From the NCBI GenBank assembly GCA_032718475.1, contig JAUCBJ010000017.1:1-33252 (forward strand): DNA of 33,252 nucleotides, in the 5' to 3' direction. Source of the stretch: Nemertoderma westbladi (taxonomy: Eukaryota > Animalia > Xenacoelomorpha). Position numbers and translations under genes: made by a program. Each line of letters begins with the position of its first letter. Position 1 is the first letter of the stretch. The notes below the pieces were generated by a model that worked only from the letters and a program-made list of their open reading frames with translations, made no database searches and had not been told where the DNA came from. Shown in pieces: positions 6,601 to 30,751 of the stretch.

Positions 6601-9600
6601 GAGTAACTCAGAGCCTTAACTGCACTAACAATATATGTCTTAGTGAGTAACTCAGAGCCTTAACTGCACTAACAATATATGTCTTAGTGAGTAACTCAGA
6701 GCCCTAACTGCACTAACAATATATGTCTTAGTGAGTAACTCAGAGCCATAACGGCACTAACAATATATGTCTTAGTGAGTAACTCAGAGCCTTAACTGCA
6801 CTAACAATATATGTCTTAGTGAGTAACTCAGAGCCTTAACTGCACTGTCTTAGTGAGTAACTCAGAGCCTTAACTGCACTAACAATATATGTCTTAGTGA
6901 GTAACTCAGAGCCTTAACTGCACTAACAATATATGTCTTAGTGAGTAACTCAGAGCCTTAACTGCACTAACAATATATGTCTTAGTGAGTAACTCAGAGC
7001 CTTAGCTGCACTAACAAAATATGTCTTAGTGAGTAACTCAGAGCCTTAACTGCACTAACAATATATGTCTTATTGAGTAACTCAGAGCCTTAGCTGCACT
7101 AACAAAATATGTCTTAGTGAGTAACTCAGAGCCTTAACTGCACTAACAATATATGTCTTAGTGAGTAACTCAGAGCCTTAACTGCACTAACAATATATGT
7201 CTTAGTGAGTAACTCAGAGCCTTAACTGCACTAACAATATATGTCTTAGTGAGTAACTCAGAGCCCTAACTGCACTAACAATATATGTCTTAGTGAGTAA
7301 CTCAGAGCCCTAACTGCACTAACAATATATGTCTTAGTGAGTAACTCAGAGCCTTAGCTGCACTAACAAAATATGTCTTAGTGAGTAACTCAGAGCCTTA
7401 ACTGCACTAACAATATATGTCTTAGTGAGTAACTCAGAGCCCTAACTGCACTAACAATATATGTCTTAGTGAGTAACTCAGAGCCTTAACTGCACTAACA
7501 ATATATGTCTTATTGAGTAACTCAGAGCCTTAGCTGCACTAACAAAATATGTCTTAGTGAGTAACTCAGAGCCTTAACTGCACTAACAATATATGTCTTA
7601 GTGAGTAACTCAGAGCCTTAACTGCACTAACAATATATGTCTTAGTGAGTAACTCAGAGCCTTAACTGCACTAACAAAATATGTCTTAGTGAGTAACTCA
7701 GAGCCTTAGCTGCACTAACAAAATATGTCTTAGTGAGTAACTCAGAGCTATAACTGCACTAACAATATATGTCTTAGTGAGTAACTCAGAGCCTTAACTG
7801 CACTAACAATATATGTCTTAGTGAGTAACTCAGAGCCTTAACTGCACTAACAATATATGTCTTATTGAGTAACTCAGAGCCTTAGCTGCACTAACAAAAT
7901 ATGTCTTAGTGAGTAACTCAGAGCCTTAACTGCACTAACAATATATGTCTTAGTGAGTAACTCAGAGCCTTAACTGCACTAACAAAATATGTCTTAGTGA
8001 GTAACTCAGAGCCTTAACTGCACTAACAATATATGTCTTAGTGAGTAACTCAGAGCCTTAACTGCACTAACAATATATGTCTTAGTGAGTAACTCAGAGC
8101 CTTAACTGCACTAACAAAATATGTCTTAGTGAGTAACTCAGAGCCTTAGCTGCACTAACAAAATATGTCTTAGTGAGTAACTCAGAGCTATAACTGCACT
8201 AACAATATATGTCTTAGTGAGTAACTCAGAGCCTTAACTGCACTAACAATATATGTCTTAGTGAGTAACTCAGAGCCTTAACTGCACTAACAATATATGT
8301 CTTATTGAGTAACTCAGAGCCTTAGCTGCACTAACAAAATATGTCTTAGTGAGTAACTCAGAGCCTTAGCTGCACTAACAAAATATGTCTTAGTGAGTAA
8401 CTCAGAGCCTTAGCTGCACTAACAAAATATGTCTTAGTGAGTAACTCAGAGCTATAACTGCACTAACAATATATGTCTTAGTGAGTAACTCAGAGCCTTA
8501 ACTGCACTAACAATATATGTCTTAGTGAGTAACTCAGAGCCTTAACTGCACTAACAATATATGTCTTAGTGAGTAACTCAGAGCCTTAACTGCACTAACA
8601 ATATATGTCTTAGTGAGTAACTCAGAGCCTTAACTGCACTAACAATATATGTCTTAGTGAGTAACTCAGAGCCTTAACTGCACTAACAATATATGTCTTA
8701 GTGAGTAACTCAGAGCCTTAACTGCACTAACAATATATGTCTTAGTGAGTAACTCAGAGCCCTAACTGCACTAACAATATATGTCTTAGTGAGTAACTCA
8801 GAGCCTTAACTGCACTAACAATATATGTCTTAGTGAGTAACTCAGAGCCTTAGCTGCACTAACAAAATATGTCTTAGTGAGTAACTCAGAGCCTTAACTG
8901 CACTAACAATATATGTCTTCGTGAGTAACTCAGAGCCTTAACTGCACTGTCTTAGTGAGTAACTCAGAGCCCTAACTGCACTAACAATATATGTCTTAGT
9001 GAGTAACTCAGAGCCTTAACTGCACTAACAATATATGTCTTAGTGAGTAACTCAGAGCCTTAGCTGCACTAACAAAATATGTCTTAGTGAGTAACTCAGA
9101 GCCTTAACTGCACTAACAAAATATGTTTTCGTGAGTAACTCAGAGCCTTAACTGCACTAACAATATATGTCTTATTGAGTAACTCAGAGCCCTAACTGCA
9201 CTAACAATATATGTCTTAGTGAGTAACTCAGAGCCCTAACTGCACTAACAATATATGTCTTAGTGAGTAACTCAGAGCCTTAACTGCACTAACAATATAT
9301 GTCTTATTGAGTAACTCAGAGCCTTAACTGCACTAACAATATATGTCTTAGTGAGTAACTCAGAGCCTTAACTGCACTAACAATATATGTCTTAGTGAGT
9401 AACTCAGAGCCTTAACTGCACTAACAATATATGTCTTAGTGAGTAACTCAGAGCCTTAACTGCACTGTCTTATTGAGTAACTCAGAGCCTTAACTGCACT
9501 AACAATATATGTCTTAGTGAGTAACTCAGAGCCTTAACTGCACTAACAATATATGTCTTAGTGAGTAACTCAGAGCCTTAACTGCACTAACAATATATGT

Positions 9601-12600
9601 CTTAGTGAGTAACTCAGAGCCTTAACTGCACTAACAATATATGTCTTAGTGAGTAACTCAGAGCCTTAACTGCACTAACAATATATGTCTTATTGAGTAA
9701 CTCAGAGCCTTAACTGCACTAACAATATATGTCTTAGTGAGTAACTCAGAGCCTTAACTGCACTAACAATATATGTCTTAGTGAGTAACTCAGAGCCTTA
9801 ACTGCACTAACAATATATGTCTTAGTGAGTAACTCAGAGCCTTAACTGCACTAACAATATATGTCTTAGTGAGTAACTCAGAGCCTTAACTGCACTAACA
9901 ATATATGTCTTAGTGAGTAACTCAGAGCCTTAACTGCACTAACAATATATGTCTTAGTGAGTAACTCAGAGCCTTAACTGCACTAACAATATATGTCTTA
10001 GTGAGTAACTCAGAGCCTTAACTGCACTAACAATATATGTCTTAGTGAGTAACTCAGAGCCTTAACTGCACTAACAATATATGTCTTAGTGAGTAACTCA
10101 GAGCCTTAACTGCACTAACAATATATGTCTTAGTGAGTAACTCAGAGCCTTAACTGCACTAACAATATATGTCTTAGTGAGTAACTCAGAGCCTTAACTG
10201 CACTAACAATATATGTCTTAGTGAGTAACTCAGAGCCTTAACTGCAACTGTCTTATTGAGTAACTCAGAGCCTTAACTGCACTAACAATATATGTCTTAG
10301 TGAGTAACTCAGAGCCTTAACTGCACTAACAATATATGTCTTAGTGAGTAACTCAGAGCCTTAACTGCACTAACAATATATGTCTTAGTGAGTAACTCAG
10401 AGCCTTAACTGCACTAACAATATATGTCTTAGTGAGTAACTCAGAGCCTTAACTGCACTAACAATATATGTCTTAGTGAGTAACTCAGAGCCTTAACTGC
10501 ACTAACAATATATGTCTTAGTGAGTAACTCAGAGCCTTAACTGCACTAACAATATATGTCTTAGTGAGTAACTCAGAGCCTTAACTGCACTAACAATATA
10601 TGTCTTAGTGAGTAACTCAGAGCCTTAACTGCACTAACAATATATGTCTTAGTGAGTAACTCAGAGCCTTAACTGCACTAACAATATATGTCTTAGTGAG
10701 TAACTCAGAGCCTTAACTGCACTAACAATATATGTCTTAGTGAGTAACTCAGAGCCTTAACTGCACTAACAATATATGTCTTAGTGAGTAACTCAGAGCC
10801 TTAGCTGCACTAACAAAATATGTCTTAGTGAGTAACTCAGAGCCTTAACTGCACTAACAATATATGTCTTAGTGAGTAACTCAGAGCCTTAACTGCACTA
10901 ACAATATATGTCTTAGTGAGTAACTCAGAGCCTTAACTGCACTAACAATATATGTCTTAGTGAGTAACTCAGAGCCTTAACTGCACTAACAATATATGTC
11001 TTAGTGAGTAACTCAGAGCCTTAACTGCACTAACAATATATGTCTTAGTGAGTAACTCAGAGCCTTAACTGCACTAACAATATATGTCTTAGTGAGTAAC
11101 TCAGAGCCCTAACTGCACTAACAATATATGTCTTAGTGAGTAACTCAGAGCCTTAACTGCACTAACAATATATGTCTTAGTGAGTAACTCAGAGCCTTAA
11201 CTGCACTAACAATATATGTCTTAGTGAGTAACTCAGAGCCTTAACTGCACTAACAATATATGTCTTAGTGAGTAACTCAGAGCCTTAACTGCACTAACAA
11301 TATATGTCTTAGTGAGTAACTCAGAGCCTTAACTGCACTAACAATATATGTCTTATTGAGTAACTCAGAGCCTTAGCTGCACTAACAATATATGTCTTAT
11401 TGAGTAACTCAGAGCCTTAGCTGCACTAACAATATATGTCTTATTGAGTAACTCAGAGCCTTAGCTGCACTAACAATATATGTCTTATTGAGTAACTCAG
11501 AGCCTTAGCTGCACTAACAATATATGTCTTATTGAGTAACTCAGAGCCTTAGCTGCACTAACAATATATGTCTTATTGAGTAACTCAGAGCCTTAACTGC
11601 ACTAACAATATATGTCTTAGTGAGTAACTCAGAGCCTTAGCTGCACTAACAATATATGTCTTATTGAGTAACTCAGAGCCTTAACTGCACTAACAATATA
11701 TGTCTTATTGAGTAACTCAGAGCCTTAGCTGCACTAACAATATATGTCTTATTGAGTAACTCAGAGCCTTAACTGCACTAACAATATATGTCTTATTGAG
11801 TAACTCAGAGCCTTAACTGCACTAACAATATATGTCTTATTGAGTAACTCAGAGCCTTAACTGCACTAACAATATATGTGTTAGTGAGTAACTCAGAGCC
11901 TTAGCTGCACTAACAATATATGTCTTATTGAGTAACTCAGAGCCTTAACTGCACTAACAATATATGTCTTATTGAGTAACTCAGAGCCTTAGCTGCACTA
12001 ACAATATATGTCTTATTGAGTAACTCAGAGCCTTAACTGCACTAACAATATATGTGTTAGTGAGTAACTCAGAGCCTTAACTGCACTAACAATATATGTC
12101 TTATTGAGTAACTCAGAGCCTTAGCTGCACTAACAATATATGTCTTATTGAGTAACTCAGAGCCTTAGCTGCACTAACAATATATGTCTTATTGAGTAAC
12201 TCAGAGCCTTAACTGCACTAACAATATATGTCTTAGTGAGTAACTCAGAGCCTTAACTGCACTAACAATATATGTCTTAGTGAGTAACTCAGAGCCTTAA
12301 CTGCACTAACAATATATGTCTTAGTGAGTAACTCAGAGCCTTAACTGCACTAACAATATATGTCTTAGTGAGTAACTCAGAGCCTTAACTGCACTAACAA
12401 TATATGTCTTAGTGAGTAACTCAGAGCCTTAACTGCACTAACAATATATGTCTTATTGAGTAACTCAGAGCCTTAACTGCACTAACAATATATGTCTTAG
12501 TGAGTAACTCAGAGCCTTAGCTGCACTAACAATATATGTCTTAGTGAGTAACTCAGAGCCTTAACTGCACTGTCTTAGTGAGTAACTCAGAGCCTTAACT

Positions 12601-15600
12601 GCACTAACAATATATGTCTTATTGAGTAACTCAGAGCCTTAACTGCACTAACAATATATGTCTTAGTGAGTAACTCAGAGCCTTAACTGCACTAACAATA
12701 TATGTCTTAGTGAGTAACTCAGAGCCTTAACTGCACTAACAATATATGTCTTAGTGAGTAACTCAGAGCCTTAACTGCACTAACAATATATGTCTTAGTG
12801 AGTAACTCAGAGCCTTAACTGCACTAACAATATATGTCTTAGTGAGTAACTCAGAGCCTTAACTGCACTGTCTTAGTGAGTAACTCAGAGCCTTAACTGC
12901 ACTAACAATATATGTCTTAGTGAGTAACTCAGAGCCTTAACTGCACTAACAATATATGTCTTAGTGAGTAACTCAGAGCCCTAACTGCACTAACAATATA
13001 TGTCTTAGTGAGTAACTCAGAGCCTTAACTGCACTAACAATATATGTCTTAGTGAGTAACTCAGAGCCTTAACTGCACTAACAATATATGTCTTAGTGAG
13101 TAACTCAGAGCCTTAACTGCACTGTCTTAGTGAGTAACTCAGAGCCTTAACTGCACTAACAATATATGTCTTAGTGAGTAACTCAGAGCCTTAACTGCAC
13201 TAACAATATATGTCTTAGTGAGTAACTCAGAGCCTTAACTGCACTAACAATATATGTCTTAGTGAGTAACTCAGAGCCTTAACTGCACTAACAATATATG
13301 TCTTAGTGAGTAACTCAGAGCCTTAACTGCACTAACAATATATGTCTTAGTGAGTAACTCAGAGCCTTAACTGCACTAACAATATATGTCTTAGTGAGTA
13401 ACTCAGAGCCTTAACTGCACTAACAATATATGTCTTAGTGAGTAACTCAGAGCCTTAACGGCACTAACAATATATGTCTTAGTGAGTAACTCAGAGCCTT
13501 AACTGCACTAACAATATATGTCTTAGTGAGTAACTCAGAGCCCTAACTGCACTAACAATATATGTCTTAGTGAGTAACTCAGAGCCTTAACTGCACTAAC
13601 AATATATGTCTTAGTGAGTAACTCAGAGCCTTAACTGCACTAACAATATATGTCTTAGTGAGTAACTCAGAGCCTTAACTGCACTAACAATATATGTCTT
13701 AGTGAGTAACACAGAGCCTTAACTGCACTAACAATATATGTCTTAGTGAGTAACTCAGAGCCTTAACTGCACTAACAATATATGTCTTATTGAGTAACTC
13801 AGAGCCCTAACTGCAGTAACAATATATGTCTTATTGAGTAACTCAGAGCCCTAACTGCACTAACAATATATGTCTTAGTGAGTAACTCAGAGCCTTAACT
13901 GCACTAACAATATATGTCTTAGTGAGTAACTCAGAGCCTTAACTGCACTAACAATATATGTCTTAGTGAGTAACACAGAGCCTTAACTGCACTAACAATA
14001 TATGTCTTAGTGAGTAACTCAGAGCCTTAACTGCACTAACAATATATGTCTTATTGAGTAACTCAGAGCCCTAACTGCAGTAACAATATATGTCTTATTG
14101 AGTAACTCAGAGCCTTAACTGCACTAACAATATATGTCTTAGTGAGTAACTCAGAGCCTTAACTGCACTAACAATATATGTCTTAGTGAGTAACTCAGAG
14201 CCCTAACTGCACTAACAATATATGTCTTAGTGAGTAACTCAGAGCCTTAACTGCACTAACAATATATGTCTTAGTGAGTAACTCAGAGCCTTAGCTGCAC
14301 TAACAATATATGTCTTAGTGAGTAACTCAGAGCCTTAACTGCACTAACAATATATGTCTTAGTGAGTAACTCAGAGCCCTAACTGCACTAACAATATATG
14401 TCTTAGTGAGTAACTCAGAGCCTTAACTGCACTAACAATATATGTCTTAGTGAGTAACTCAGAGCCCTAACTGCACTAACAATATATGTCTTAGTGAGTA
14501 ACTCAGAGCCTTAACTGCACTAACAATATATGTCTTATTGAGTAACTCAGAGCCCTAACTGCAGTAACAATATATGTCTTATTGAGTAACTCAGAGCCTT
14601 AACTGCACTAACAATATATGTCTTAGTGAGTAACTCAGAGCCTTAACTGCACTAACAATATATGTCTTATTGAGTAACTCAGAGCCCTAACTGCACTAAC
14701 AATATATGTCTTAGTGAGTAACTCAGAGCCTTAACTGCACTAACAATATATGTCTTAGTGAGTAACTCAGAGCCTTAACTGCACTAACAATATATGTCTT
14801 AGTGAGTAACTCAGAGCCTTAACTGCACTAACAATATATGTCTTAGTGAGTAACTCAGAGCCTTAACTGCACTAACAATATATGTCTTAGTGAGTAACTC
14901 AGAGCCTTAACTGCACTAACAATATATGTCTTATTGAGTAACTCAGAGCCTTAACTGCACTAACAATATATGTCTTAGTGAGTAACTCAGAGCCTTAACT
15001 GCACTAACAATATATGTCTTAGTGAGTAACTCAGAGCCTTAACTGCACTAACAATATATGTCTTAGTGAGTAACTCAGAGCCCTAACTGCACTAACAATA
15101 TATGTCTTAGTGAGTAACTCAGAGCCCTAACTGCACTAACAATATATGTCTTAGTGAGTAACTCAGAGCCTTAACTGCACTAACAATATATGTCTTATTG
15201 AGTAACTCAGAGCCCTAACTGCACTAACAATATATGTCTTAGTGAGTAACTCAGAGCCTTAACTGCACTAACAATATATGTCTTAGTGAGTAACTCAGAG
15301 CCCTAACTGCACTAACAATATATGTCTTAGTGAGTAACTCAGAGCCTTAACTGCACTAACAATATATGTCTTAGTGAGTAACTCAGAGCCTTAACTGCAC
15401 TAACAATATATGTCTTAGTGAGTAACTCAGAGCCTTAACTGCACTAACAATATATGTCTTAGTGAGTAACTCAGAGCCCTAACTGCACTAACAATATATG
15501 TCTTAGTGAGTAACTCAGAGCCTTAACTGCACTAACAATATATGTCTTAGTGAGTAACTCAGAGCCTTAACTGCACTAACAATATATGTCTTAGTGAGTA

Positions 15601-16022
15601 ACTCAGAGCCTTAACTGCACTAACAATATATGTCTTAGTGAGTAACTCAGAGCCTTAACTGCACTAACAATATATGTCTTAGTGAGTAACTCAGAGCCCT
15701 AACTGCACTAACAATATATGTCTTAATGAGTAACTCAGAGCCTTAACTGCACTAACAATATATGTCTTAGTGAGTAACTCAGAGCCTTAACTGCACTAAC
15801 AATATATGTCTTAGTGAGTAACTCAGAGCCTTAACTGCACTAACAATATATGTCTTAGTGAGTAACTCAGAGCCTTAACTGCACTAACAATATATGTCTT
15901 AGTGAGTAACTCAGAGCCTTAACTGCACTAACAATATATGTCTTAGTGAGTAACTCAGAGCCCTAACTGCACTAACAATATATGTCTTAGTGAGTAACTC
16001 AGAGCCTTAACTGCACTAACAA
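3631..16022. repeat. 44-bp tandem satellite, ~280 copies (12.4 kb)
   Basis: Consensus GTGAGTAACTCAGAGCCTTAACTGCACTAACAATATATGTCTTA, repeated head to tail with few substitutions and occasional 10-bp or 2-bp deletions. Confidence 0.99.
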
Positions 16023-16306
16023 AGTAACAAATAGAATATAAAACACGGGTTTATATTTAAATGATATTTTATTTTTTTGACTATTTGCATCAAGAACTCC
16101 CTTACCAGAAACTTTTCTCCAAAAACTACAATATTATTCACAGAATATAGTTAATTTATAAAGTTACACAGCCCCGAGAAGGAAGACGGATCAGTAAACA
16201 TCCTGGCAATAAAAATATCTCAGCTATTCGTCAATAAAGTAAAACTGTTTGTTCTCGATTTTGAGTTATTGAAGTCCGCATTCTATCTGTACTATCTAAT
16301 CACGAA

Positions 16307-19177
16307 AGTACAGACAATGTCTGCGGTGTGTCTAGTTATATAATACTGACAATGTCTACGGTGCTTCTGGTGATTGATATAGTACTGCCAATGTCTGCGG
16401 TGCGTCTGGTGATCGATAAAGTACTGCTAATGTCTGTGGTGCGTCTGGTGATTGATATAGTACTGCCAATGTCAGCGGTGCGTCTGGTGATTGATATAGT
16501 ACTGCCAATGTCTGCGGTGCTTCTGGTGATTGATATAGTACTGCCAATGTCTGCGGTGCGTCTAGTTATATAATACTGACAATGTCTGCGGTGTGTCTAG
16601 TTATATAATACTGACAATGTCTACGGTGCTTCTGGTGATTGATATAGTACTGCCAATGTCTGCGGTGCGTCTGGTGATCGATAAAGTACTGCCAATGTCT
16701 GTGGTGCGTCTGGTGATTGATATAGTACTGCCAATGTCTGCAGTGCGTCTGGTGATTGATATAGTACTGACAATGTCTGCGGTGGTTCTGGTGATTGATA
16801 AAGTACTGCCAATGTCTGCGGTGCGTCTGGTGATTGATATAGTACTGCCAATGTCTGTGGTGCGTCTGGTGATTGATATAGTACTGCCAATGTCTGCGGT
16901 GCGTCTGGTGATTGATATAGTACTGCCAATGTCTGCGGTGCGCCTGGTAATTGATATAGTACTGACAATGTCTGCGGTGCGTCTAGTTATATAATACTGA
17001 CAATGTCTGCGGTGCTTCTGGTGATTGATATAGTACTGCCAATGTCTGCGGTGCGCCTGGTGATTGATATAGTACTGCCAATGTCTGCGGTGAGTCTGGT
17101 GATTGATGATATAGTACTGCCAATGTCTGCGGCGCGTCTGGTGATCGATATAGTACTGACAGTGTCTGCGGTGCTTCTGGTGATCGATATAGTACTGACA
17201 GTGTCTGCGGTGCATCTGGTGATTGATATAGTACTGCCAATGTCTGCGGTGCGTCTGGTGATTGATATAGTACTGCCAATGTCTGCGGTGCGTCTGGTTA
17301 TTGATATAGTACTGACAATGTCTGCGGTGCTTCTGGTGATTGATATAGTACTGACAGTGTCTGCGGTTCATCTGCTAATTGATATAGTACTGACAATGTC
17401 TGCGGTGCTTCTGGTGATTGATATAGTACTGACAATGTCTGCGGTGCGTCTAGTTATATAATACTGACAATGTCTGCGGTGCGTCTAGTTATATAATACT
17501 GACAATGTCTGCGGTGCTTCTGGTGATTAATATAGTACTAACAATGTCTGCGGTGCGTCTGGCGATTGATATAGTACTGACAATGTCTGCGGTGCTTCTG
17601 GTGATTGATATAGTACTGACAATGGTTGCGGTGCGTCTAGTTATATAATACTGAGAATGTCTACGGTGCTTCTGGTGATTGATATAGTACTGACAATGGT
17701 TGCGGTGCGTCTAGTTATATAATACTGACAATGTCTGCGGTGCGTCTAGTTATATAATACTGACAATGTCTGCGGTGCTTCTGGTGATTGATATAGTACT
17801 GACAATGGTTGCGGTGCGTCTAGTTATATAATACTGACAATGTCTGCGGTGCTTCTGGTGATTGATATAGTACTGGCAATGTCTGCGGTGCGTCTGGTGA
17901 TTGATATAGTACTGACAATGTCTGCGGTGCTTCTGGTGATTGATATAGTACTGACAATGTCTGCGGTGCGTCTAGTTATATAATACTGACAATGTCTGCG
18001 GTGCTTCTGGTGATTGATATAGTACTGCCAATGTCTGCGGTGCGTCTGGTGATTGATATAGTACTGACAATGTCTGCGGTGCTTCTGGTCATTGATAATG
18101 ATTAGTACTGACAATGTCTGCGGTGCGTCTAGTTATATAATACTGACAATGTCTGCGGTGCGTCTAGTTATATAATACTGACAATGTCTGCGGTGCGTCT
18201 GGTGATTGATATAGTACTGACAATGTCTGCGGTGCTTCTGGTGATTGATATAGTACTGACAATGTCTGCGGTGCGTCTAGTTATATAATACCGACAATGT
18301 CTGCGGTGCTTCTGGTGATTGATATAGTACTGAAAATGTCTGCGATGCGTCTGGTTATATAACACTGACAATGTCTGCGGTGCTCCTGGTGATTGATATA
18401 GTACTGACAATGTCTGCGGTGCATCTGATAATTGATACAGTACTGACAATGTCTGCGATGCGTCTGGTTATATAACACTGACAATGTCTGCGGTGCTTCT
18501 GGTGATTGATATAGTACTGACAATGTCTGCGGTGCATCTGGTAATTGATATAGTACTGACAATGTCTGCGGTGCGTCTAGTTATATAATACTGACAATGT
18601 CTGCGGTGCTTCTGGTGATTGATATAATACTGACAATGTCTGCGATGCGTCTGGTTATATAACACTGACAATGTCTGCGGTGCGTCTAGTTATATAATAC
18701 TGACAATGTCTGCGGTGCTTCTGGTAATTGATATAGTACTGACAATGTCTGCGGTGCATCTGGTAATTGATATAGTATTGACAATGTCTGCGGTGCGTCT
18801 ATTTATATAATACTGACAATGTCTGCGGTGCTTCTGGTGATTGATATAGTAGTGACAATGTCTGCGGTGCGTCTATTTATATAATACTGACAATGGTTGC
18901 GGGGCGTCTAGTTATATAATGCTGACAATGTCTGCGGTGCGTCTAGTTATTTAATACTGACAATGTCTGCGGTGCTTCTGGTGATTGATATAGTACTGAC
19001 AATGTCTGCGGTGCGTCTAGTTATATAATACTGACAATGTCTGCCGGGTGTCTGGTGATTGATATAGTACTGACAATGTCTGCGGTGCTTCTGGTGATTG
19101 ATATAATACTGGCAATGTCTGCCGTGCGTCTGGTGATATAGTACTGACAGTGTCTGTGGTGCGTTTGGTGATATAGT
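16307..19177. repeat. 39/35-bp minisatellite, ~75 copies
   Basis: Two interspersed monomers: GTACTG(A/C)CAATGTCTGCGGTGC(G/T)TCTGGTGATTGATATA (39 bp) and ATACTGACAATGTCTGCGGTGCGTCTAGTTATATA (35 bp). Confidence 0.98.
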
Positions 19178-19311
19178 CTGTCATATTGACACAAATTTTA
19201 TTTTATATCGATCGAGACACTTTTTTCTCAAATCTTATGCGGCTGTAAACAAACAACAAATGTAATTTCCGAAACAAAGGGTTGGTTTAGTCACAGAAGG
19301 GCCCTTTATAG

Positions 19312-19590
19312 AAAGACAGTAGACAGACACACAGTAGGCCGACAAAGAGTAGACAGACAAACAATAGATAGACACACAGTATACAGACACACAGTAGACA
19401 GACACACAGTAGACAGACACACAGTAGACAGACACACACCGCAGACTTTACACAGAGTAATCAGACACAGAGAAGAAAGACAAACACCGTAGACAGACAC
19501 AGAGTAGACAGACACACAGTAGTCAGTCACACAGTAGGCAGACACACAGTAGATAGACACACAGTAGACATACACACAGTAAACAGACTC
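19312..19590. repeat. 15-bp minisatellite, left segment (~18 degenerate copies)
   Basis: ACAGTAGACAGACAC units; same family as 20046-22782. Confidence 0.95.
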
Positions 19591-19650
19591 CAAACAGATT
19601 CCAAATTTAGGAATCGCGTAATTTTTCTTAAAATTAATATCTCATATCTC

Positions 19651-19704
19651 TCCAAACCACGTACGCGTTTCGACCTTACTGAGTCTCATCAGCGTGGTGT
19701 CGGA
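19651..19704 (-). ncRNA. Minimal type I hammerhead ribozyme
   Basis: Minus strand reads UCCGA-C-ACCACG CUGAUGA GACU CAGUAA GGUC GAAA CGCG UA^CGUGGU-UUGGA. The core CUGAUGA/GAAA/UA is intact. Helix I is 6 bp plus a 5-bp extension, helix II is 4 bp with a 6-nt loop, and helix III is reduced to the palindrome ACGCGU. Predicted cleavage is between 19662 and 19661. Confidence 0.9.
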
Positions 19705-19753
19705 TTCGAACCTGGGACCTCGAGGTGAAGCCGAGACTACAACCACTAGGCCA
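19702..19753 (-). promoter_or_regulatory. RNA polymerase III type 2 internal promoter (A box + B box) in a degenerate tRNA-like head
   Basis: TGGCCTAGTGG and GGTTCGAATCC match the consensus and have tRNA-like spacing. A residual anticodon-like stem (CTCG/CGAG) remains, but the D and T stems do not pair, so this is not a functional tRNA. Confidence 0.82.
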
Positions 19754-19833
19754 CAGGTTCTTGAGATATGGAGTATTAATTTCAAAGCCAGGTGCCAATT
19801 TATTAGCCCCTGATTTTTATTTATTTTTTATTA

Positions 19834-20041
19834 TTGATAGTAACAATGTGTTGGCCTTGGCATGCTGTATCTTTCGAGGTGTTTGTTATTATACATTTAT
19901 TATAGGAAGGGATCTAGGGGTCTTAAACTCGAATTATAAGTTTATTTTACCGAAAATAACTTATCTTATCCCTTCCTATAATAAATGTATAATAACAAAC
20001 ACCTCGAAAAATACAGCATGCCAACACATTGTTACTATCAA
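19834..20041. mobile_element. Foldback/MITE-like element with ~74-80-bp inverted arms
   Basis: 19834-19913 is the reverse complement of 19968-20041 except for one substitution and a 6-bp duplication in the left arm. The 54-bp spacer has its own small hairpin (19936-19964). Confidence 0.8.
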
Positions 20042-20045
20042 CAGG

Positions 20046-22782
20046 CACAGGGTAGACAGACACAGAGTAGACAGACAGACAGTAGACAAACACACAGTAG
20101 ACAGACACACAGTAAATAGACACACAGTAGACAGACCCACAGTAGACAGACACACAGTAGACAATACAGACAGTAGACATACACACAGTAGACAGACAGA
20201 CAGTAGACAAACACACAGTAGACAGACACACAGTAAATCGACACACAGTAGACAGACACACAGTAGACAGACACACAGTAGACAGACACACAGTAGACAG
20301 ACACATAGTAGACAGATACAGATTAGACAGACACAGAGTAGACAGACACAGAGTAGACAGACACAGAGTAGACAGACAGACAGTAGACAAACACAGAGTA
20401 GACAGACACACAGTAAATAGACACACAGTAGACATACACACAGTAGACATACACACAGTAGACAGACAGACCGTAGACAAACACACAGTAGACAGACACA
20501 CAGTAAATAGACACACAGTAGACAGACACACAGTAGACAGACACACAGTAGACAAGACAGACACACAGTAGACAAGACAGACACACAGTAGACAAGACAG
20601 ACACACAGTAGACAGACACATAGTAGACAGACACAGATTAGACAGACACAGAGTAGACAGACCAGAAAAGACAGACACACAGTAAACAGACACAGAGTAG
20701 ACAGACTCACAGTAGACATACACACAGTAGACAGACAGAGAGTAGACAGACAGAGATTAGACAGACACAGAGTAGACAGACACACATTAGACATACACAC
20801 AGTAGACAGACAGACAGTAGACAAACACACAGTAGACAGATACACAGTAAATAGACACACAGTAGACAGACACACAGTAGACAGACACATAGTAGACAGC
20901 CACAGATTAGACAGACTCAGAGTAGACATACACACAGTAGACAGACACACAGTAGACAAACACACAGCAGACAGACACACAGTAGACATACACACAGTAG
21001 ACATAGACACAGTAGACATACACACAGTAGACAGACACACAGTAGACATATACACAGTAGACATACACACAGTAGACATACACATAGTAGACATACACAC
21101 AGTAGACATACACACAGTAGACATACACACAGTAGACAGACACACAGTAGACATATACACAGTAGATATACACACAGTAGAAATACACACAGTAGACATA
21201 CATACAGTAGACATACACACAGTAGACATACACACAGTAGACAGACAGACAGTAGACATATACACAGTAGATATACACACAGTAGACATACACACAGTAG
21301 ACACACACACAGTAGACATACACACAGTAGACATACACACAGTAGACATACACACAGTAGACATACATACAGTAGACATACACAGTAGACATACACACAG
21401 TAGACAGACAGACAGTAGACATACACACAGTAGACATACACACAGTAGACATACACACAGTAGACATACACACAGTAGACATACACACAGTAGACAGACA
21501 CACAGTAGACATATACACAGTAGATATACACACAGTAGACATACACACAGTAGACAGACAGACAGTAGACATACATACAGTAGACATACACACAGTAGAC
21601 ATACACACAGTAGACAGACAGACAGTAGATAGACACACAGTAGACATACACACACTAGACAGACACACAGTAGACATATACACAGTAGATAGACACACAG
21701 TAGACATACACACAGTAGACATACACAGAGTAGACATATACACAGTAGACATACACACAGTAGACATACACACAGTAGACATACATACAGTAGACATACA
21801 CACAGTAGACAGACAGACAGTAGATAGACACACAGTAGACATACACACAGTAGACATACACACAGTAGACATACACACAGTAGACATACACACAGTAGAC
21901 ATACATACAGTAGACATACACACAGTAGACATACACACAGTAGACAGACAGACAGTAGATAGACACACAATAGACATACACACACTAGACAGACACACAG
22001 TAGACATATACACAGTAGATAGACACACAGTAGACATACACACAGTATATATACACACAGTAGACATACACACACTAGACAGACACACAGTAGACATATA
22101 CACAGTAGATAGACACACAGTAGACATACACACAGTAGACAGACACACAGTAGACATATACACAGTAGATATACACACAGTAGACATACATACAGTAGAC
22201 ATACACACAGTAGACATACACACAGTAGACAGACAGACAGTAGATAGACACACAGTAGACATACACACACTAGACAGACACACAGTAGACATATACACAG
22301 TAGATAGACACACAGTAGACATACACACAGTAGACATACACACAGTAGACATACACACAGTAGACATACACACAGTAGACATACATACAGTAGACATACA
22401 CACAGTAGACATACACACAGTAGACAGACAGACAGTAGATAGACACACAGTAGACATACACACAGTAGACATACACACAGTAGACATACACACAGTAGAC
22501 ATACACACAGTAGACATACATACAGTAGACATACACACAGTAGACATACACACAGTAGACAGACAGACAGTAGATAGACACACAATAGACATACACACAC
22601 TAGACAGACACACAGTAGACATATACACAGTAGATAGACACACAGTAGACATACACACAGTATATATACACACAGTAGACAGACAAACAGTATACATACA
22701 CAGTAGACATACACACAGTAGACAGACACACAGTAGACATATACACAACACAGTAGATATACACACAGTAGACAGACACACA
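20046..22782. repeat. 15-bp minisatellite, main segment (~180 copies)
   Basis: Consensus ACAGTAGACA(G/T)ACAC. The G form dominates before ~20930 and the T form after. Confidence 0.99.
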
Positions 22783-22903: not shown

Positions 22904-24801
22904 CAGAAACTCCAATAAAACCTTGTCGATTTCTGGGTACCGGACACCGGTACTGGTACCGGTATTCAGAAACTCCAATAAAACCTTGTCGCTATCTGGG
23001 TACCGGTACTGGTACCGGTATTCCGAAAAAACAATAAAACCTTGTCGATTTATGGGTACTGGTACCGGTATTCAGAAACTCCAATAAAACCGTGTCGATT
23101 TCTGGGTACCGGTACTGGTACCGGTATTCAGAAACTCCAATAAAACCTTGTCGATCTCTGGGTACCGGTACTAGTACCGGTATTCAGAAACTCCAATAAG
23201 ACCTTGTCGATCTCTAGGTACCGGTACTGGTACCGGTATTCAGAAACTCCAATAAAACCTTGTCGATTTCTGGGTACCGGTATTCAGAAACTCCAATAAA
23301 ACCTTGTCGATCTCTGGGTACCGGTACTGGTACCGGTATCAAGAAACTCCAATAAAACCTTGTCGATTTCTGGGTACCGGTACTGGTACCGGTATTCAGA
23401 AACTCCAATAAAACCTTGTCGATCTCTGGGTACCGGTACTGGTACCGGTATTCAGAAACTCCAATAAAACCTTGTCGATTTCTGGGTACCGGACACCGGT
23501 ACTGGTACCGGTATTCAGAAACTCCAATAAAACCTTGTCGCTATCTGGGTACCGGTACTGGTACCGGTATTCCGAAAAAACAATAAAACCTTGTCGATTT
23601 ATGGGTACTGGTACCGGTATTCCGAAAAAACAATAAAACCGTGTCGATTTCTGGGTACCGGTACTGGTACCGGTATTCAGAAACTCCAATAAAACCTTGT
23701 CGATCTCTGGGTACCGGTACTGGTACCGGTATAAAGAAACTCCAATAAAACCTTGTCGATTTCTGGGTACCGGTACTGGTACCGGTATTCAGAAACTCCA
23801 ATAAAACCTTGTCGATTTCTGGGTACCGGTACCGGTATTCAGAAACTCCAATAAAACCTTGTCGCTATCTGGGTACCGGTACTGGTACCGGTATTCCGAA
23901 AAAACAATAAAACCGTGTCGATTTCTGGGTACCGGTACTGGTACCGGTATTCAGAAACTCCAATAAAACCTTGTCGATCTCTGGGTACCGGTACTGGTAC
24001 CGGTATCAAGAAACTCCAATAAAACCTTGTCGATTTCTGGGTACCGGTACCGGTATTCAGAAACTCCAATAAAACCTTGTCGATTTCTGGGTACCGGTAT
24101 TCAGAAACTCCAATAAAACCTTGTCGATTTCTGGGTACCGGTACTGGTACCGGTATTCAGAAACTCCAATAAAACCTTGTCGATCTCTGGTTACTAGTAC
24201 CGGTATTCAGAAACTCCAATAAAACCTTGTCGATTTCTGGGTACCGGTACTGGTACCGGTATTCAGAAACTCCAATAAAACCTTGTCGATTTCTGGGTAC
24301 CGGTACTGGTACCGGTATTCAGAAACTCCAATAAAACCTTGTCGATTTCTGGGTACCGGTATTCAGAAACTCCAATAAAACCTTGTCGATCTCTGGGTAC
24401 CGGTACTGGTACCGGTATTCAGAAACTCCAATAAAACCTTGTCAATTTCTGGGTACCGGTACTGGTACCGGTATTCAGCAACTCTAATAAAACCTTGTCG
24501 ATCTCTGGGTACCGGTACTGGTACCGGTATTCAGAAACTCCAATAAAACCTTGTCGATCTCTGGTTACTAGTACCGGTATTCAGAAACTCCAATAAAACC
24601 TTGTCGATCTTTGGGTACCGGTACTGGTACCGGTATTCATAAACTCCAATAAAACCTTGTCGATCTCTGGTTACTAGTACCGGCATTCAGAAACTCCAAT
24701 AAAACCTTGTCGATCTCTGGGTACCGGTACTGGTACCGGTATTCAGAAACTCCAATAAAACCTTGTCGATCTTTGGTTACTGGTACTGGTACCGGTATTC
24801 A
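22904..24801. repeat. ~56-bp minisatellite with a palindromic GGTACC/ACCGGT core, ~35 copies
   Basis: Consensus CAGAAACTCCAATAAAACCTTGTCGAT(T/C)TCTGGGTACCGGTACTGGTACCGGTATT. Length variants differ mostly by 6-bp GGTAC(C/T) subunits. Confidence 0.98.
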
Positions 24802-25202: not shown

Positions 25203-26291
25203 TCAGGGCAGCACGATAGTACTGCGTCTCTGTGCTACAGGCAGACCCCCGGTACCCCCGTCCATACTGGCACTGCGCACCAACCCGGCACCCTTAAACT
25301 GCTCCTCGCACACCCGGGAGGTCGCCTCCAACCTCTCGGCCCGCGCCCGATCCAACGGATGCATCGAGAACAGCAGGTTCTCGCGGTCCGCTAGCGAACG
25401 CAAGTCGAAGTAATACTTGGCGTAAACACTCCCGGGAACGTTTATGTTGAACTGCAGGAACTCGAGGAACTGCCGTTCCAAATCGTTCATATCCTCAACC
25501 GAAATCTCCTTGAGTATTTGGCAGAAGTCGACGTTCCAGACGGCCTGATCGTCCCAGACCTTGGAGGCCAACAGGACCGCCCCCAACACTATCCGCTTCC
25601 AGTTGGACGGCCCGATATCCGTCTCCGAGTAGTGCAGCAGTCGCTCCACGTAGACCAGCGTGATGATGGCGCACTCGGCGGTCAACTGGGCCTGTCCGAA
25701 CAAGGTCCGCACGAACCGGTAGATGTGTCGGTGTTCCGGCTCGTTGGTGGCGTAATCCGCGGGAACCGGGTCCCGGGACAACGGGTGGAGTTTCTCATCG
25801 AATATATCGATAGTCCGAGAGAGCCGGTCCCGTTTCTTTATGTGATAATAAACAGCCAACGCGACGCACTTCAACGTCGCCTTCAGGTTGGGTTGGCTGA
25901 CCGTGGAGTCATCTATATATATTGTGGAACAAGAGTTGCTGCGTTTTAGGCTGCGTTGCGAGACGGATATCGGCGGGTTTGAGTCCCGTCGACGCAGCTG
26001 GTCGCTGGCCGCCGCCATTAGGGTCACTGACCTGGTTATAAACATTGTGGATGCGGAGGGATGAACGGAGGGATCTCTCGAGGAATCCTCGGGCTCCCGG
26101 TCGCTGATGTGTTGCAGGTTGGCGGACTGCTCGCCGCCCCCGTCTGTCGGGATCAGAAGACTCGGGGTCCGTTGCTCCGCGACCTTGTACTGCTCCCCCT
26201 GACGGCGTTCGTGCGAACGACGACGGTTGCGTTCCGATTTGGTCCGCTCCGGCGGCGCCAGGGGGCAGCAGCAGCATTGTGCGTTACCCAT
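25203..26291 (-). CDS. CCNY: Cyclin Y, 362 aa, single coding exon
   Basis: Recognisable cyclin Y blocks: MGN..CC lipidation N-terminus, [112 protein letters not shown], and C-terminal RSAS. The ORF is uninterrupted from ATG to TGA. Confidence 0.97.
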
Positions 26292-26312: not shown

Positions 26313-27600
26313 ATGCCGACACCAAATTAATTCCAGATAAGTAATTAATTCGCAGGCAATCTCAATAGCAAACAATCTCTATCACGGAAACCTCATATAT
26401 TTCAACTCATTAAAAACTTTCAATAAATAAACTACCGGTATATCACTCAGTAATCAGTATATACCTGTAGACCTATACCAGTATAATGCTATACAGATAT
26501 ATGAGGCCTAGTCGGTCCATTTAGATTGCAGATTGTAGAGCAGGAGCAGAGCGCTAATTCAGTTTTTTAAACCGGATTCCGGTTTGCAATCACAAGAAAG
26601 AAATATCAGATATATTTCCAAAACATACGAAAGCGTAAGCTAATAGGGCACAGTCTGACAGTGACCTGGCTGCCTGGTGACAGTAGGGTTTACTGTCAGA
26701 CAGTACAGCAGTAATAGGGGAAAGTGGGGGAATTAGAAACACGTTTTGGATGTAAAAAAATTAAAAGTGCCATCATTTCTACACAAGCATTCATAGAGGA
26801 AATATAACTATAGATTTGGAATCATGCATCTATCTACTAACAAAACAATGGAACATCCTATCTCGTCTGCCTATCACTATCTGGTAGTGACATGCAGACG
26901 AGATTTTTTTAAAGTCGAGATTGTTTCCATTTACCCCACAATGGTGTAAATGGAAACAGGGTTTGTCTCCCTCCCACCCAATAATTAAATTAGCCAGAAA
27001 TTCACATGTGGTAATTGGAATATTTCTAATTACCACATGGGAATGTAGATTAAATTGCGCACAATTTGATATATAACATGTCTATGTTGCCAGTTGCCAT
27101 GTTTAATATTTAAAGTGTTTCACAAACCTTCAAAAATTAACAGAGATCTGGAGATAAGCATGTTTGTGAATAAATGACACCCAGCAACAATATGGATATA
27201 TGAAAACTAATTATAGCTCTTTATATAACTAAATCAAACTTAATTTATTTAAATTAAAATGAATTAGCTTAACTTAAATTAAAATTAGAATTTCTTGTTA
27301 GTTCAGCACTGCCCCATTCCCGCTTTTCCTATTACCACCAGATATTGGGTCAATGTTTCCTCGTTGGCTTTTCCGAGAAAACATCTACGCACATGACCTA
27401 TATATATAATTCAGTAATTAGGATCACTATATTTAAGTTTCTTCTTCCCAGAGGGTACCCCCAGGAATTCCAAAGGTATATGCATGCATCCTCCCGAACC
27501 GAATAGTGGCATGACCACAGGAAATGGTGCTTAAGGCAGCAGATAAGATTCCATAGAGTATGACGCCCAGGCAACGCAGGCAGCCATGAAGTTTGCGTAA

Positions 27601-27826
27601 AATTGAGGGGAAGGAGCAGGTTACAGAGGCTGGCTTTTCTAACCCAAACAATACAGCAATAAACGGCCACTTTCCAAAATGAGGGAAAGGAACAGATTAC
27701 AGAGGCAGGCTTTTCTAACCAAAACAATAAACGGCCACTTTACCAATTGAGGGAAAGCAGCAGGTTACAGAGGTGGGCTTTTCTAACCAAAACAATAAAC
27801 GATCACTTTACCAATTGAGGGAAACC
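27601..27826. repeat. ~68-76-bp tandem repeat, 3+ degenerate copies, inside the TA-flanked element
   Basis: Repeated AATTGAGGGAAAG...GTTACAGAGG..GGCTTTTCTAACC.AAACAATAAACG..CACTTT. Confidence 0.9.
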
Positions 27827-28185: not shown

Positions 28186-29446
28186 AGGTAGAATAAAACG
28201 TCTGTCCTTATCTGATCTGATCTGATCTGACAGCATCTGATCCTACAACCAATCAGGAGAAAGAAATATAATATTTACCTAACTGTCTGATAGGTACATA
28301 GCCAATAGCTGAATAGGAGATCACGTTTCAGGTTGCCTGTTACGTATCAGTATCATCATATGAAGTAGCAGTACAGGCATACCGGTATGCATCTAATGCA
28401 CAAAGGCGTGTTATTATATATTAAAAATGCGATATACAGTAGGATGAAGGATGGCGGGTATGAAAGTTGTGTGATTGTCCCAGCAAACATGCATAGTTTC
28501 AGATGTAAACAACTTTCGTAGATTTAGTTGGTGTTGAAACAGTAAACTTGTTTACACCCACCTTCTTACAAACCGTCCGACTGACTGATCAATAGATCAT
28601 CCCCCTCAAAAAATAAAGGACATCGCGCACGCGCATAAAACACTTAATAAAGATAAATTTAATAAAAAATATCGACCAATAATAAATCGACCGCAAAATG
28701 AAATCCTGGTATTCTTCACATGGGCGAAGAATACCAGACTTTCTGCCGTTTATTTCACTTTGCAGTTACCCCCATGTGAAGAATACCAGGTTTTCACCAA
28801 AAACACAGGTTACAGAAGGGCTGAATATAACCAAAACAATAAACGAATTAGTATATGTGCAGGTTATAAGACATAAATAAGCTCTATAATACACTCAATA
28901 AAGATAAATTAAAAAAGTAAAATCTTCAAATATAAAATTCCAATAAAAGTCGACCGAAAGGTGAAATCCTGGTATTCTTCACACGGGCGGTATTCTTCAC
29001 ATGGACCAGCACCAAAATTTGTCACCAGCCGCTAAAAACAAATTTAAAATTTCTAGCTTATTTTATTTGAATTCCTTTTAGTTCGTTTCAGTTAGTATTT
29101 TAGTTAGTATCGTTAGTTTCAGAGTGGGAGGTATTATATTGACCCCCCCCCCCCCCCCGGGTTTAAGGGGAATACCGGGGAAACTTCACATGCTGACATA
29201 GGCAGAAAGTCCAGTACTCATTTAGCTACCATTTAAGGATGCAAGTCAGAGATGCCTCGCTAAACCCTTCAAAACATTCGTGCCGAAACGAAAACTACCT
29301 TGGCCCCATGCCGGGGTTGAACCCACAACCTCCGAGAGATGTGAATTCAATATAACCACTACACCAAGGTGCGCTCTGAACCAGGTGGAACAAGTGTCAG
29401 ATACCGTCAGATCAGATCAGATAAGGACAGACGTTTTAGCCATCCT
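28186..29446. mobile_element. Nested non-autonomous TIR element with an 11-bp target-site duplication (Mutator-like by TSD length)
   Basis: AGG.....TAAAACGTCTGTCCTTATCTGATCTGATCTGA on the left matches TCAGATCAGATCAGATAAGGACAGACGTTTTA.....CCT on the right. ACAGTAATAAG lies directly outside both ends (28175-28185 and 29447-29457). Confidence 0.85.
29058..29373 (-). mobile_element. tRNA-derived SINE (~300 bp); 3' boundary approximate
   Basis: Minus strand: A box TGGTGTAGTGG (29366-29356), B box GGTTCAACCCC (29323-29313), body motif AGCTAAATGAGTAC (29227-29214), and an ACTAACT/A-rich simple-repeat tail near 29122-29058. Confidence 0.75.
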
Positions 29447-30576: not shown

Positions 30577-30751
30577 GAACTTAGATCCTGCAAGGCCAGA
30601 CTTTGATGAACTTAGATCTTTGCGAACTTAGATCCTAACTAGGTAAACTTAGATCCTAACTAGGTGAACTTAGATCCTAACTAGGTGAAATTCCTATCTG
30701 GGTGAACTTAGATCCTAACTAGGTGGACTTAGATTCTAACTAGGTGAACTT
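30577..30751. repeat. 21-bp tandem repeat, ~8 partly degenerate copies
   Basis: GGTGAACTTAGATCCTAACTA units; the core GAACTTAGATC recurs from 30577. Confidence 0.9.

What the first reader, a model, noticed from the sequence alone, without database searches (positions are those of the whole stretch)
19628..19785. Pol III promoter fused to a hammerhead ribozyme: a ~130-nt self-cleaving SINE/retrozyme-like unit hidden in a satellite
Seen: on the minus strand, a tRNA-like head (A box TGGCCTAGTGG, B box GGTTCGAATCC) runs directly into a complete hammerhead (ACCACG CUGAUGA GACU-CAGUAA-GGUC GAAA CGCG UA^CGUGGU). About 25 nt later comes TTTT, a Pol III terminator. Known: Schistosoma Sm-alpha repeats combine tRNA-like Pol III boxes with a hammerhead, and minimal type I hammerheads typify Penelope-like elements and animal retrozymes. 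Inferred: this is a self-transcribing, self-processing non-autonomous retroelement or small RNA, possibly mobilised by a Penelope-like RT. The architecture has precedent, but this compact single-monomer version may be an undescribed family.
Basis: partly seen in the sequence, partly recalled or inferred. Interest (0 to 1): 0.9.

Follow-up and report, generated by a model that had tools for sequence, protein, structure and literature searches.

The report
tRNA-promoter hammerhead jumping repeat
This is one rearranged copy of a very abundant, roughly 410-base animal repeat in which a tRNA-type promoter sequence sits directly in front of a hammerhead ribozyme motif, a design already known from blood flukes; it likely cuts its own RNA and is likely spread by a Penelope-type enzyme, but neither step was shown.

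Summary
The motifs are real. On the minus strand, A and B boxes (19753-19702) run into a canonical type I hammerhead (19698-19656). Neither motif appeared in 300 shuffles. Rfam Hammerhead_1 matches end to end but below its cut-off (22 bits against 34).

The '130-nt monomer' is wrong. Public DNA runs of the same species show hundreds to thousands of copies of a larger unit of about 411 nt that joins head to tail. The TTTT 'terminator' is private to this copy; over 99.8% of family depth reads TTTC.

The window holds a truncated partial tandem plus a 74-nt inverted piece, as in Penelope-type insertions. Helix III is one base pair with a palindromic loop, so cutting probably needs a dimer.

Best reading: a non-LTR retrozyme with its own Pol III promoter, like Schistosoma Sm-alpha, in an unplaced animal. 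Cleavage, expression, circles and the partner element were not shown. The scan found the same design before in another genome (e1-9924037). New member of a known kind.

The parts
19602..19813 (-). Head-bearing part of one unit (leader, tRNA-like head, hammerhead, downstream stem); stops 60 nt past the predicted cut
   Evidence: summed depth 2.6-7.2e5 in X1 and 1.1-4.8e5 in X3 over the bins 19622-19797; family contigs continue past 19602 into a 60-nt stretch that the window lacks; for the distance
19763..19785 (-). 5' arm of a 23-nt stem that closes the head plus hammerhead; lies upstream of the predicted Pol III start (about 19760, inferred from tRNA geometry)
   Evidence: I3, 83% complementary; z -5.28, 0 of 200 shuffles fold as well
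19702..19760 (-). tRNA-like head with A box (19753-19743) and B box (19712-19702); predicted to fold as one long hairpin, not a cloverleaf; isotype not assignable
   Evidence: an extra base in the anticodon loop in 54,576 of 168,508 depth (X1) and 52,210 of 71,405 (X3)
19656..19698 (-). Canonical type I hammerhead: helix I 6 bp, helix II 4 bp with a 6-nt loop, helix III 1 bp with a 2-nt palindromic loop; predicted cut GUA^ between 19662 and 19661
   Evidence: two copies co-fold with a 6-bp intermolecular helix III (-40.3 against 2 x -16.0 kcal/mol)
19628..19650 (-). 3' arm of the 23-nt closing stem; contains the TTTT (19633-19630) that is private to this copy
   Evidence: 19630 pairs with G19783; the family letter makes it a C-G pair
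19811..19967 (-). 3' part of the preceding unit, 5'-truncated, ending in an A-rich linker (19833-19811) that runs into the next unit's leader; holds a T4 run at 19956-19953
   Evidence: joint 19967 to 19602 with 60 letters between in X3 and X4; X4 record 17 spans 19602-19924
19968..20041 (+). 74-nt inverted copy of the unit's 3' portion (equivalent to 19913-19834), abutting the truncated 5' end of the partial tandem
   Evidence: I1 57 nt at 98%, I2 22 nt at 100%; loose ends behind 20038-20041 run into AT-rich, poorly agreeing flanks
19316..19588 (.). 15-bp satellite flanking the insert on the left
20052..22782 (.). 15-bp satellite flanking the insert on the right

Best explanation
This is one truncated and partly inverted copy of a high-copy, about 411-nt non-coding repeat that carries tRNA-type A and B boxes directly upstream of a canonical type I hammerhead motif, and it is likely a non-LTR retrozyme of the Sm-alpha type, likely transcribed by Pol III, predicted to self-cleave as a dimer and likely copied by a Penelope-type reverse transcriptase. 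Steps: (1, inferred) in head-to-tail copies the promoter of one unit drives a transcript through the next unit. (2, predicted) Paired hammerheads cut once per unit, using the palindromic helix III. (3, inferred from other retrozymes) A host ligase closes the cut-to-cut monomer into a circle, in which the weak helix III would limit re-cutting and the 23-nt stem can form. (4, inferred) A Penelope-type RT/endonuclease primes inside the circle or an uncut multimer and copies across the cut site, the promoter and the upstream leader. This would give partial tandems with inverted 5' pieces like the one in the window, and each new full copy would keep its promoter. Shown: motifs, unit length, head-to-tail junction, high copy number, the tandem-plus-inversion layout.
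For: Motifs and chance controls. High copy number: summed depth over the cassette is about 7,500-20,000 times (X1) and 4,700-21,500 times (X3) that over the cyclin Y gene of the same window (35.2 and 22.3). Summed depth over-counts overlapping short contigs; dividing by 31 still leaves 150-690 (the divisor is my assumption). Unit: X4 record 17 is a 441-nt contig whose ends overlap by 30 nt, a 411-nt cycle through head, hammerhead, 60-nt stretch, 3' part and A-rich linker; X3 has the same 60-letter joint; the window itself holds the tail-to-head junction. The leader upstream of the predicted start and both sides of the cut site are about as deep as the rest, as expected if the template is a circle or multimer. 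No change at 3% or more is listed in the boxes in 4 of 4 runs, or in the catalytic core in 3 of 4 runs. The family letters at 19682 and 19630 turn G-U pairs of helix II and of the closing stem into C-G. Size, 37% GC and lack of an ORF fit non-LTR retrozymes (PMC7229834). Partial tandem plus adjacent inverted 5'-truncated copy is the layout described for Penelope-like elements (PMC8557442). Promoter-then-hammerhead in tandem is the Sm-alpha model (PMC6765202).
Against: No cleavage, transcript or circle was seen. X4 also holds two other very high-depth repeats of the window at depth 7-11, so its cycle cannot be read as an RNA circle. Rfam scores are below cut-off. A T4 run at 19956-19953 has no listed variant and could stop Pol III about 235 nt after the start, before a full unit is made. 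The family is young and uniform, so invariance is weak evidence of selection, and no two-sided compensatory change was seen. Two other family letters (19792, 19798) break pairs of a hairpin predicted in this copy's leader. The internal loop of helix I is smaller than in the HH9 consensus, so the usual tertiary contact is uncertain. The long cis stem (-57.7 kcal/mol) could trap monomers and hinder dimer formation. No Penelope element was identified; the two RT fragments in the window only match the general RVT_1 family. The main copy's 3' end (19602) and the inverted piece's end (20041) are different positions of the unit, which does not fit a single fixed RT start. One X5 contig (depth 401) has three core changes.
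Confidence: 0.68

Rival explanations
1. A Penelope-mobilised, tRNA-headed repeat that is copied from uncut read-through RNA; the hammerhead is inherited from a Penelope pLTR and is weak or dispensable, and no circle is needed.
For: In vitro, hammerhead cleavage was not needed for insertion by an anole Penelope protein, and unprocessed RNA was the main substrate (PMC11167929). Helix III is only 1 bp. The long cis stem may block dimers. The window copy ends 60 nt past the cut, and loose ends of 16 X1 and 10 X3 contigs agree for only about 15 further bases; this is close to the anole element, where RT starts 111-118 nt into the ORF and the cut is at 26. Other windows of this scan report tRNA-headed Penelope-type repeats with no ribozyme (unchecked).
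Against: The core is intact in the family majority and helix II is fully Watson-Crick there. The ribozyme is canonical, not the minimal pLTR type. Canonical tandem hammerheads tested in coral, mussel and axolotl gave circles (PMC7229834).
Confidence: 0.18
2. A transcribed satellite-like tandem repeat that is amplified mainly at the DNA level; the window piece is a fragment rearranged inside another satellite, and retrotransposition is rare or past.
For: Head-to-tail junction and an even depth along the unit are also expected of tandem arrays. The window is rich in satellites. No clear target-site duplication. Only 283 of 2,470 X1 records and 258 of 1,056 X3 records lie partly on the stretch.
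Against: Contigs with long (median up to 255 nt), poorly agreeing flanks leave the unit near 19602 and 20040, which points to dispersed copies. The tandem-plus-inversion layout matches Penelope insertions. Sequence uniformity suggests recent spread.
Confidence: 0.1
3. A stand-alone 130-nt Pol III small RNA or classical SINE monomer that starts at the tRNA head, self-cleaves and stops at TTTT.
For: A and B boxes with tRNA spacing, a hammerhead and a TTTT are present in this copy.
Against: The TTTT is absent from over 99.8% of family depth. The leader and the downstream 3' part are as deep as the cassette. The unit is about 411 nt. A monomer has a 1-bp helix III with a 2-nt loop.
Confidence: 0.04

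Closest known systems
Sm-alpha / Sj-alpha SINE-like hammerhead retroposons of Schistosoma (PMC6765202 passages; PMC2770079 passages; PMC8490949 passages; the original paper by Ferbeyre et al. 1998 was not read)
   Same: Pol III-type promoter followed by a type I hammerhead; tRNA-derived head; high copy number; tandem copies in which the upstream promoter transcribes the next unit; similar size (335 bp for the Sm-alpha-like W36.2).
   Different: The host is not placed, and no flatworm is named among the 120 best cyclin Y hits listed (of 1,664). Unit about 411 nt. Head not assignable to tRNA-Gln and refolded into a hairpin inside a 23-nt closing stem. No sequence comparison with Sm-alpha was made, so common descent is untested.
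Metazoan non-LTR retrozymes of coral, mussel, axolotl and Xenopus (PMC7229834 passages; PMC7761336 passages; bioRxiv 10.64898/2026.07.22.740005 abstract, first part of Results and passages)
   Same: Canonical type I hammerhead in a 150-450-bp, low-GC, non-coding unit; head-to-tail copies; weak palindromic helix III; proposed Penelope partner.
   Different: The 2020 review says metazoan retrozymes do not seem to harbour promoters; this one has clear A and B boxes. Cleavage and circles were shown there, not here.
Penelope-like elements and their non-autonomous derivatives (PMC8557442 passages; PMC11167929 passages; PMC4209133 passages)
   Same: Partial tandem with an adjacent inverted 5'-truncated copy; hammerhead in the repeated unit; ends a short way downstream of the hammerhead and in AT-rich flanks (hint only).
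   Different: No ORF; canonical rather than minimal hammerhead; a tRNA-type promoter; no autonomous partner identified.

Membership tests
Non-LTR retrozyme | Canonical type I hammerhead (helix I 6 bp, helix II 4 bp, helix III 1-2 bp with a small palindromic loop) | tested here: met
   definition from PMC4209133; Rfam score below cut-off
Non-LTR retrozyme | Short (150-450 bp), low-GC, non-coding unit | tested here: met
   411-nt cycle; GC 0.37 and longest ATG-led frame 25 codons over the 366 nt held in the window
Non-LTR retrozyme | Multi-copy, head-to-tail repeats | tested here: met
   tail-to-head junction in the window, in X1 record 6 and in the X4 cycle; very high depth; the share of copies in tandem was not measured
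Non-LTR retrozyme | Self-cleavage | not testable with these tools
   only co-folding of a dimer
Non-LTR retrozyme | Accumulation of linear and circular unit-length RNA | not testable with these tools
   all runs laid were contigs and none is on record as RNA
Sm-alpha / Sj-alpha | Pol III promoter followed by a hammerhead | tested here: met
   A and B boxes 30 nt apart, 3 nt before helix I; met at motif level, Pol III transcription itself untested
Sm-alpha / Sj-alpha | Head derived from a defined tRNA (Gln-TTG for Sm-alpha-related SINEs, PMC2770079) | tested here: inconclusive
   no tRNA call at default; weak TCA call at relaxed threshold; anticodon loop varies in length
Sm-alpha / Sj-alpha | Sequence homology to Sm-alpha; schistosome host | not tested
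   no Sm-alpha sequence was available from the tools; host unplaced, and no flatworm is named among the 120 listed cyclin Y hits
Non-autonomous Penelope-like element | Partial tandem with an adjacent inverted 5'-truncated copy | tested here: met
   one copy only: 19968-20041 inverted, 19967-19811 and 19813-19602 in tandem (PMC8557442)
Non-autonomous Penelope-like element | Fixed 3' end(s) at AT-rich targets | tested here: inconclusive
   two candidate clusters of ends (about 15 nt beyond 19602; 20038-20041), tens of contigs each, biased sampling
Non-autonomous Penelope-like element | Homology to the pLTR of an autonomous Penelope-like element in the same genome | not testable with these tools
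   no genome is held for this window
Classical tRNA-derived SINE | Element begins at the tRNA 5' end | tested here: not met
   the leader 19766-19797 is about as deep as the head
Classical tRNA-derived SINE | Target-site duplication around a monomer | tested here: not met
   best match 5-6 nt made of satellite letters; this copy only

The most novel reading that the evidence does not exclude
An independently evolved, self-promoting circular retro-RNA. Its tRNA-derived promoter and its hammerhead are folded away inside a rod closed by a 23-bp stem that can form only in a read-through or circular RNA, and a Penelope-type enzyme copies the circle. With Sm-alpha and similar repeats noted elsewhere in this scan, it would mark a widespread, unnamed class of 'Penelope SINEs' that bridges SINEs and retrozymes and answers how animal retrozymes are transcribed.
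Probability: 0.3. Interest if true: 0.65.

Novelty: new member of a known kind. Interest (0 to 1): 0.4.

Why it matters
How animal retrozymes are transcribed is open: a 2020 review says they seem to lack promoters (PMC7761336), and Sm-alpha of blood flukes is the one promoter-bearing case named in the papers I read. A young, uniform, high-copy family with intact A/B boxes and an intact hammerhead in another animal offers a clean test. One construct can show whether Pol III read-through, dimer cleavage and circularisation supply the template for a Penelope-type enzyme. The design itself is not new, and nothing functional was shown.

Tried and rejected
Whole-genome search: no genome is held, so copy number, tandem share, covariation and the partner element could not be read from an assembly.

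Relatives elsewhere: the strict B-box-plus-hammerhead pattern found 0 stretches in metagenome, viral and prokaryote genome contigs. A looser pattern found 4 viral and 37 metagenome stretches. All 41 were checked: the only blastn match to the unit was 20 nt at E 0.046, and 5 of 41 were phage-like tRNA genes next to a hammerhead-like core, not SINE-like units. These collections hold little animal DNA, so the blanks say little.

Expression: no RNA holder listed. X4 and X7 are RNA only by guess. X4 had no contig on the cyclin Y gene and covered 5 of 30 bins, X7 1 of 30. I read X4 as probable trace DNA and do not use its cycle as evidence of a circular RNA.

The depth dip at 19814-19861 is not used: the tool skipped the A-rich repeat there, and contigs also fit the inverted arm.

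MITE reading of the 23-nt inverted repeat or of the 19834-20041 palindrome: rejected, because both lie inside or derive from the larger unit. The miRNA-family matches to the palindrome are far below cut-off.

tRNA-Sec or suppressor reading of the TCA loop: rejected (12 bits, broken T-arm, variable loop).

Host identity: the exact cyclin Y is not in the protein collection. A tree of 31 rows (the window plus 30 of the 120 hits, chosen by hand; no sponge, cnidarian, flatworm or non-animal row) left it on a long, unplaced branch.

Literature: six searches listed no paper describing a tRNA-promoter hammerhead repeat outside Schistosoma. The library lacks most subscription papers and Repbase/Dfam entries, so this is not proof of absence. 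PMC5785218 was not held. PMC5680766 and PMC3531059 were searched for terms and added nothing on promoters. Supplements were not read; those of the bioRxiv preprint are closed and list retrozyme consensus families that could include promoter-bearing ones.

Full report
OBSERVATION. A full type I hammerhead descriptor gives 1 hit in the window and 0 in 300 dinucleotide shuffles; an A/B-box pattern gives 2 hits and 0 in the same shuffles. Rfam Hammerhead_1 aligns over its whole length at 22.0 bits (E 7.8e-4, cut-off 34) and HH9 at 22.7 bits (cut-off 52). Nothing reaches a gathering score. The head is tRNA-like only in its boxes and spacing: ARAGORN calls nothing at default, Rfam's best is 12 bits, and the T-arm is broken.

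LOCAL ANATOMY. A 23-nt inverted repeat brackets head and ribozyme (19763-19785 with 19628-19650). The 158-nt stretch folds at -57.7 kcal/mol, z -5.28, better than all 200 shuffles, with the head as one long hairpin and helices I and II formed. The 366-nt stretch is less exceptional (z -2.75; 2 of 100 shuffles fold as well). The stem's 5' arm lies upstream of where Pol III should start (about 19760, inferred from tRNA geometry), so only a read-through or circular RNA could form it. Helix I has 6 bp and helix II 4 bp. Helix III is a single C-G pair beyond the core with a 2-nt loop inside the palindrome ACGCGU. That is the canonical metazoan form, which cleaves poorly alone and well as a dimer (PMC4209133 passages; PMC7229834 passages). 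Two copies co-fold with a 6-bp intermolecular helix III at -40.3 kcal/mol against 2 x -16.0. Next to the cassette is a palindrome, 19834-19913 against 19968-20041. The whole 440-nt insert sits between two blocks of a 15-bp satellite, with no clear target-site duplication.

THE FAMILY. No genome is held, so I used public runs. Six of 11 listed runs hold part of the stretch; four were laid. X1 and X3 are the window's species: their contigs match the cyclin Y region at 0-1 differences over 1,164 and 2,008 nt, at depth 35.2 and 22.3. Over the cassette the summed depth is 2.6-7.2e5 (X1) and 1.1-4.8e5 (X3). The tool warns that this is not a copy number. The raw ratios are 4,700-21,500, and 150-690 after allowing a 31-fold over-count for overlapping short contigs (my assumption). 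So there are hundreds to thousands of copies. Most laid records are at least 95% alike (1,792 of 2,470 in X1; 680 of 1,056 in X3), so the family is young.

THE UNIT IS ABOUT 411 NT. The palindrome's sequence is as deep as the cassette. A joint from 19967 back to 19602 with 60 letters between appears in X3 and X4 (one contig each), and X1 has shorter variants of it. X4 record 17 is 441 nt with a 30-nt overlap of its ends: a 411-nt cycle. In RNA sense the order is leader, head, hammerhead, stem arm, 60-nt stretch, 3' part, A-rich linker, next leader. The window therefore holds an inverted 74-nt piece, the 3' part of one unit, and the first 212 nt of the next. X4 also holds two other very deep repeats of the window at depth 7-11. 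I read its cycle as a sign that the tail-to-head junction is common in the DNA (inference), not as an RNA circle.

FAMILY LETTERS. At 19630 nearly all depth has the letter that turns TTTT into TTTC (476,370 of 476,715 in X1; 187,795 of 188,072 in X3). The terminator is thus private to this copy, and the family stem has C-G where this copy has U-G. At 19682 the family has C-G in helix II where this copy has U-G (598,242 of 599,338 in X1). No change at 3% or more is listed in the boxes in any of the four runs, or in the core in X1, X3 and X4; one X5 contig at depth 401 has three core changes. Against over-reading: these are one-sided changes in a young family; two other family letters (19792, 19798) break a hairpin predicted in this copy's leader; and a T4 at 19956-19953 shows no listed variant and could stop Pol III before a unit is complete. 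The anticodon loop has an extra base in about a third (X1) to three quarters (X3) of the depth, so no isotype can be assigned.

MECHANISM. The leader and both sides of the cut site are about as deep as the rest. A SINE copied from a primary Pol III transcript would lose the leader, and a cut linear monomer primed internally would lose the head. A circular or multimeric template keeps both (inference; DNA-level tandem amplification would too). A partial tandem with an adjacent inverted 5'-truncated copy is the described layout of Penelope-like insertions (PMC8557442 passages). An anole Penelope protein nicks AT-rich DNA and starts reverse transcription inside its RNA, downstream of the hammerhead, without needing cleavage (PMC11167929 passages). 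Here, contigs leave the unit into poorly agreeing AT-rich flanks about 15 nt beyond 19602 (16 contigs in X1, 10 in X3) and at 20038-20041 (30 in X1, 23 in X3, 3 in X5); this is a hint of preferred ends and no more. I commit to a Pol III-driven, dimer-cleaving, Penelope-mobilised retrozyme at about 0.68. Transcription, cleavage, circularisation and the partner are all inferred.

HOST. An intron-free cyclin Y gene at 25203-26291 (minus) has full-length identities of at most 60% among the 120 hits listed, and its named hits are animals, apart from one label that gives no species. A tree left it on a long, unplaced branch. No flatworm is named among those hits, so a schistosome is unlikely.

COMPARISON. 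It works like Sm-alpha: promoter then hammerhead, in tandem, the upstream unit transcribing the next (PMC6765202 passages; tRNA origin and more than 10,000 copies in PMC2770079 passages). It meets the testable features of non-LTR retrozymes, now argued to be non-autonomous partners of Penelope-like elements (bioRxiv 10.64898/2026.07.22.740005). It fails two classical SINE features. Homology to Sm-alpha was not tested. Pattern scans found no relative in the microbial collections, and the scan's own index has no look-alike sequence. An earlier, unchecked note reports the same design in another animal (e1-9924037), and its notes led me to two of the papers.

VERDICT. New member of a known kind, interest 0.4. 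What is worth a follow-up is the promoter in a non-schistosome retrozyme and the closing stem that needs a read-through or circular RNA.

Noticed in passing
L002:301-350, L003:301-349, L009:398-454, L011:601-650, L024:601-650: In 5 of 41 pattern hits a hammerhead-like core with a 4-8-bp helix II starts right after the 3' end of a tRNA or tRNA-like gene (Gln in three), in three cases inside a phage-like tRNA cluster. None of these five cores reached an Rfam cut-off, but a second hammerhead in L011 (384-430) did, at 40.4 bits. They may release tRNAs from a long transcript.
   Followed up: partly
window 29313-29366 (-): A second A/B-box tRNA-like head, with high depth in DNA runs; probably an ordinary SINE. 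No hammerhead follows it.
   Followed up: partly
window 25203-26291 (-): Intron-free cyclin Y gene of 362 codons on a long branch, used as the single-copy control.
   Followed up: partly
window 1-2531 (+) and 30744-31500 (+): Two broken reverse-transcriptase fragments (Pfam RVT_1); the first is split over two frames. Their clade was not tested.
   Followed up: partly
window 27600-27824 and 28635-28990: Two more very high-depth short repeats, about as deep as the hammerhead family; not characterised.
   Followed up: no
window 3632-16022, 16307-19172, 19316-22782, 22946-24801: Four different satellites (44, 39, 15 and 56 bp units) lie back to back over about 21 kb, between an RT fragment and the cyclin Y gene.
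   Followed up: no
window 19631-19727 and 19887-19945: Two longer X5 contigs at high depth carry pieces of the unit: 1,831 nt at depth 401 with a degenerate hammerhead core, and 818 nt at depth 1,106 sharing 59 nt of the 3' part. They may be derivatives or a partner element; their full sequences could not be retrieved.
   Followed up: no
window 26755-27362: A moderately repeated stretch (depth 240-470 against 22-35 for single copy) just upstream of cyclin Y.
   Followed up: no
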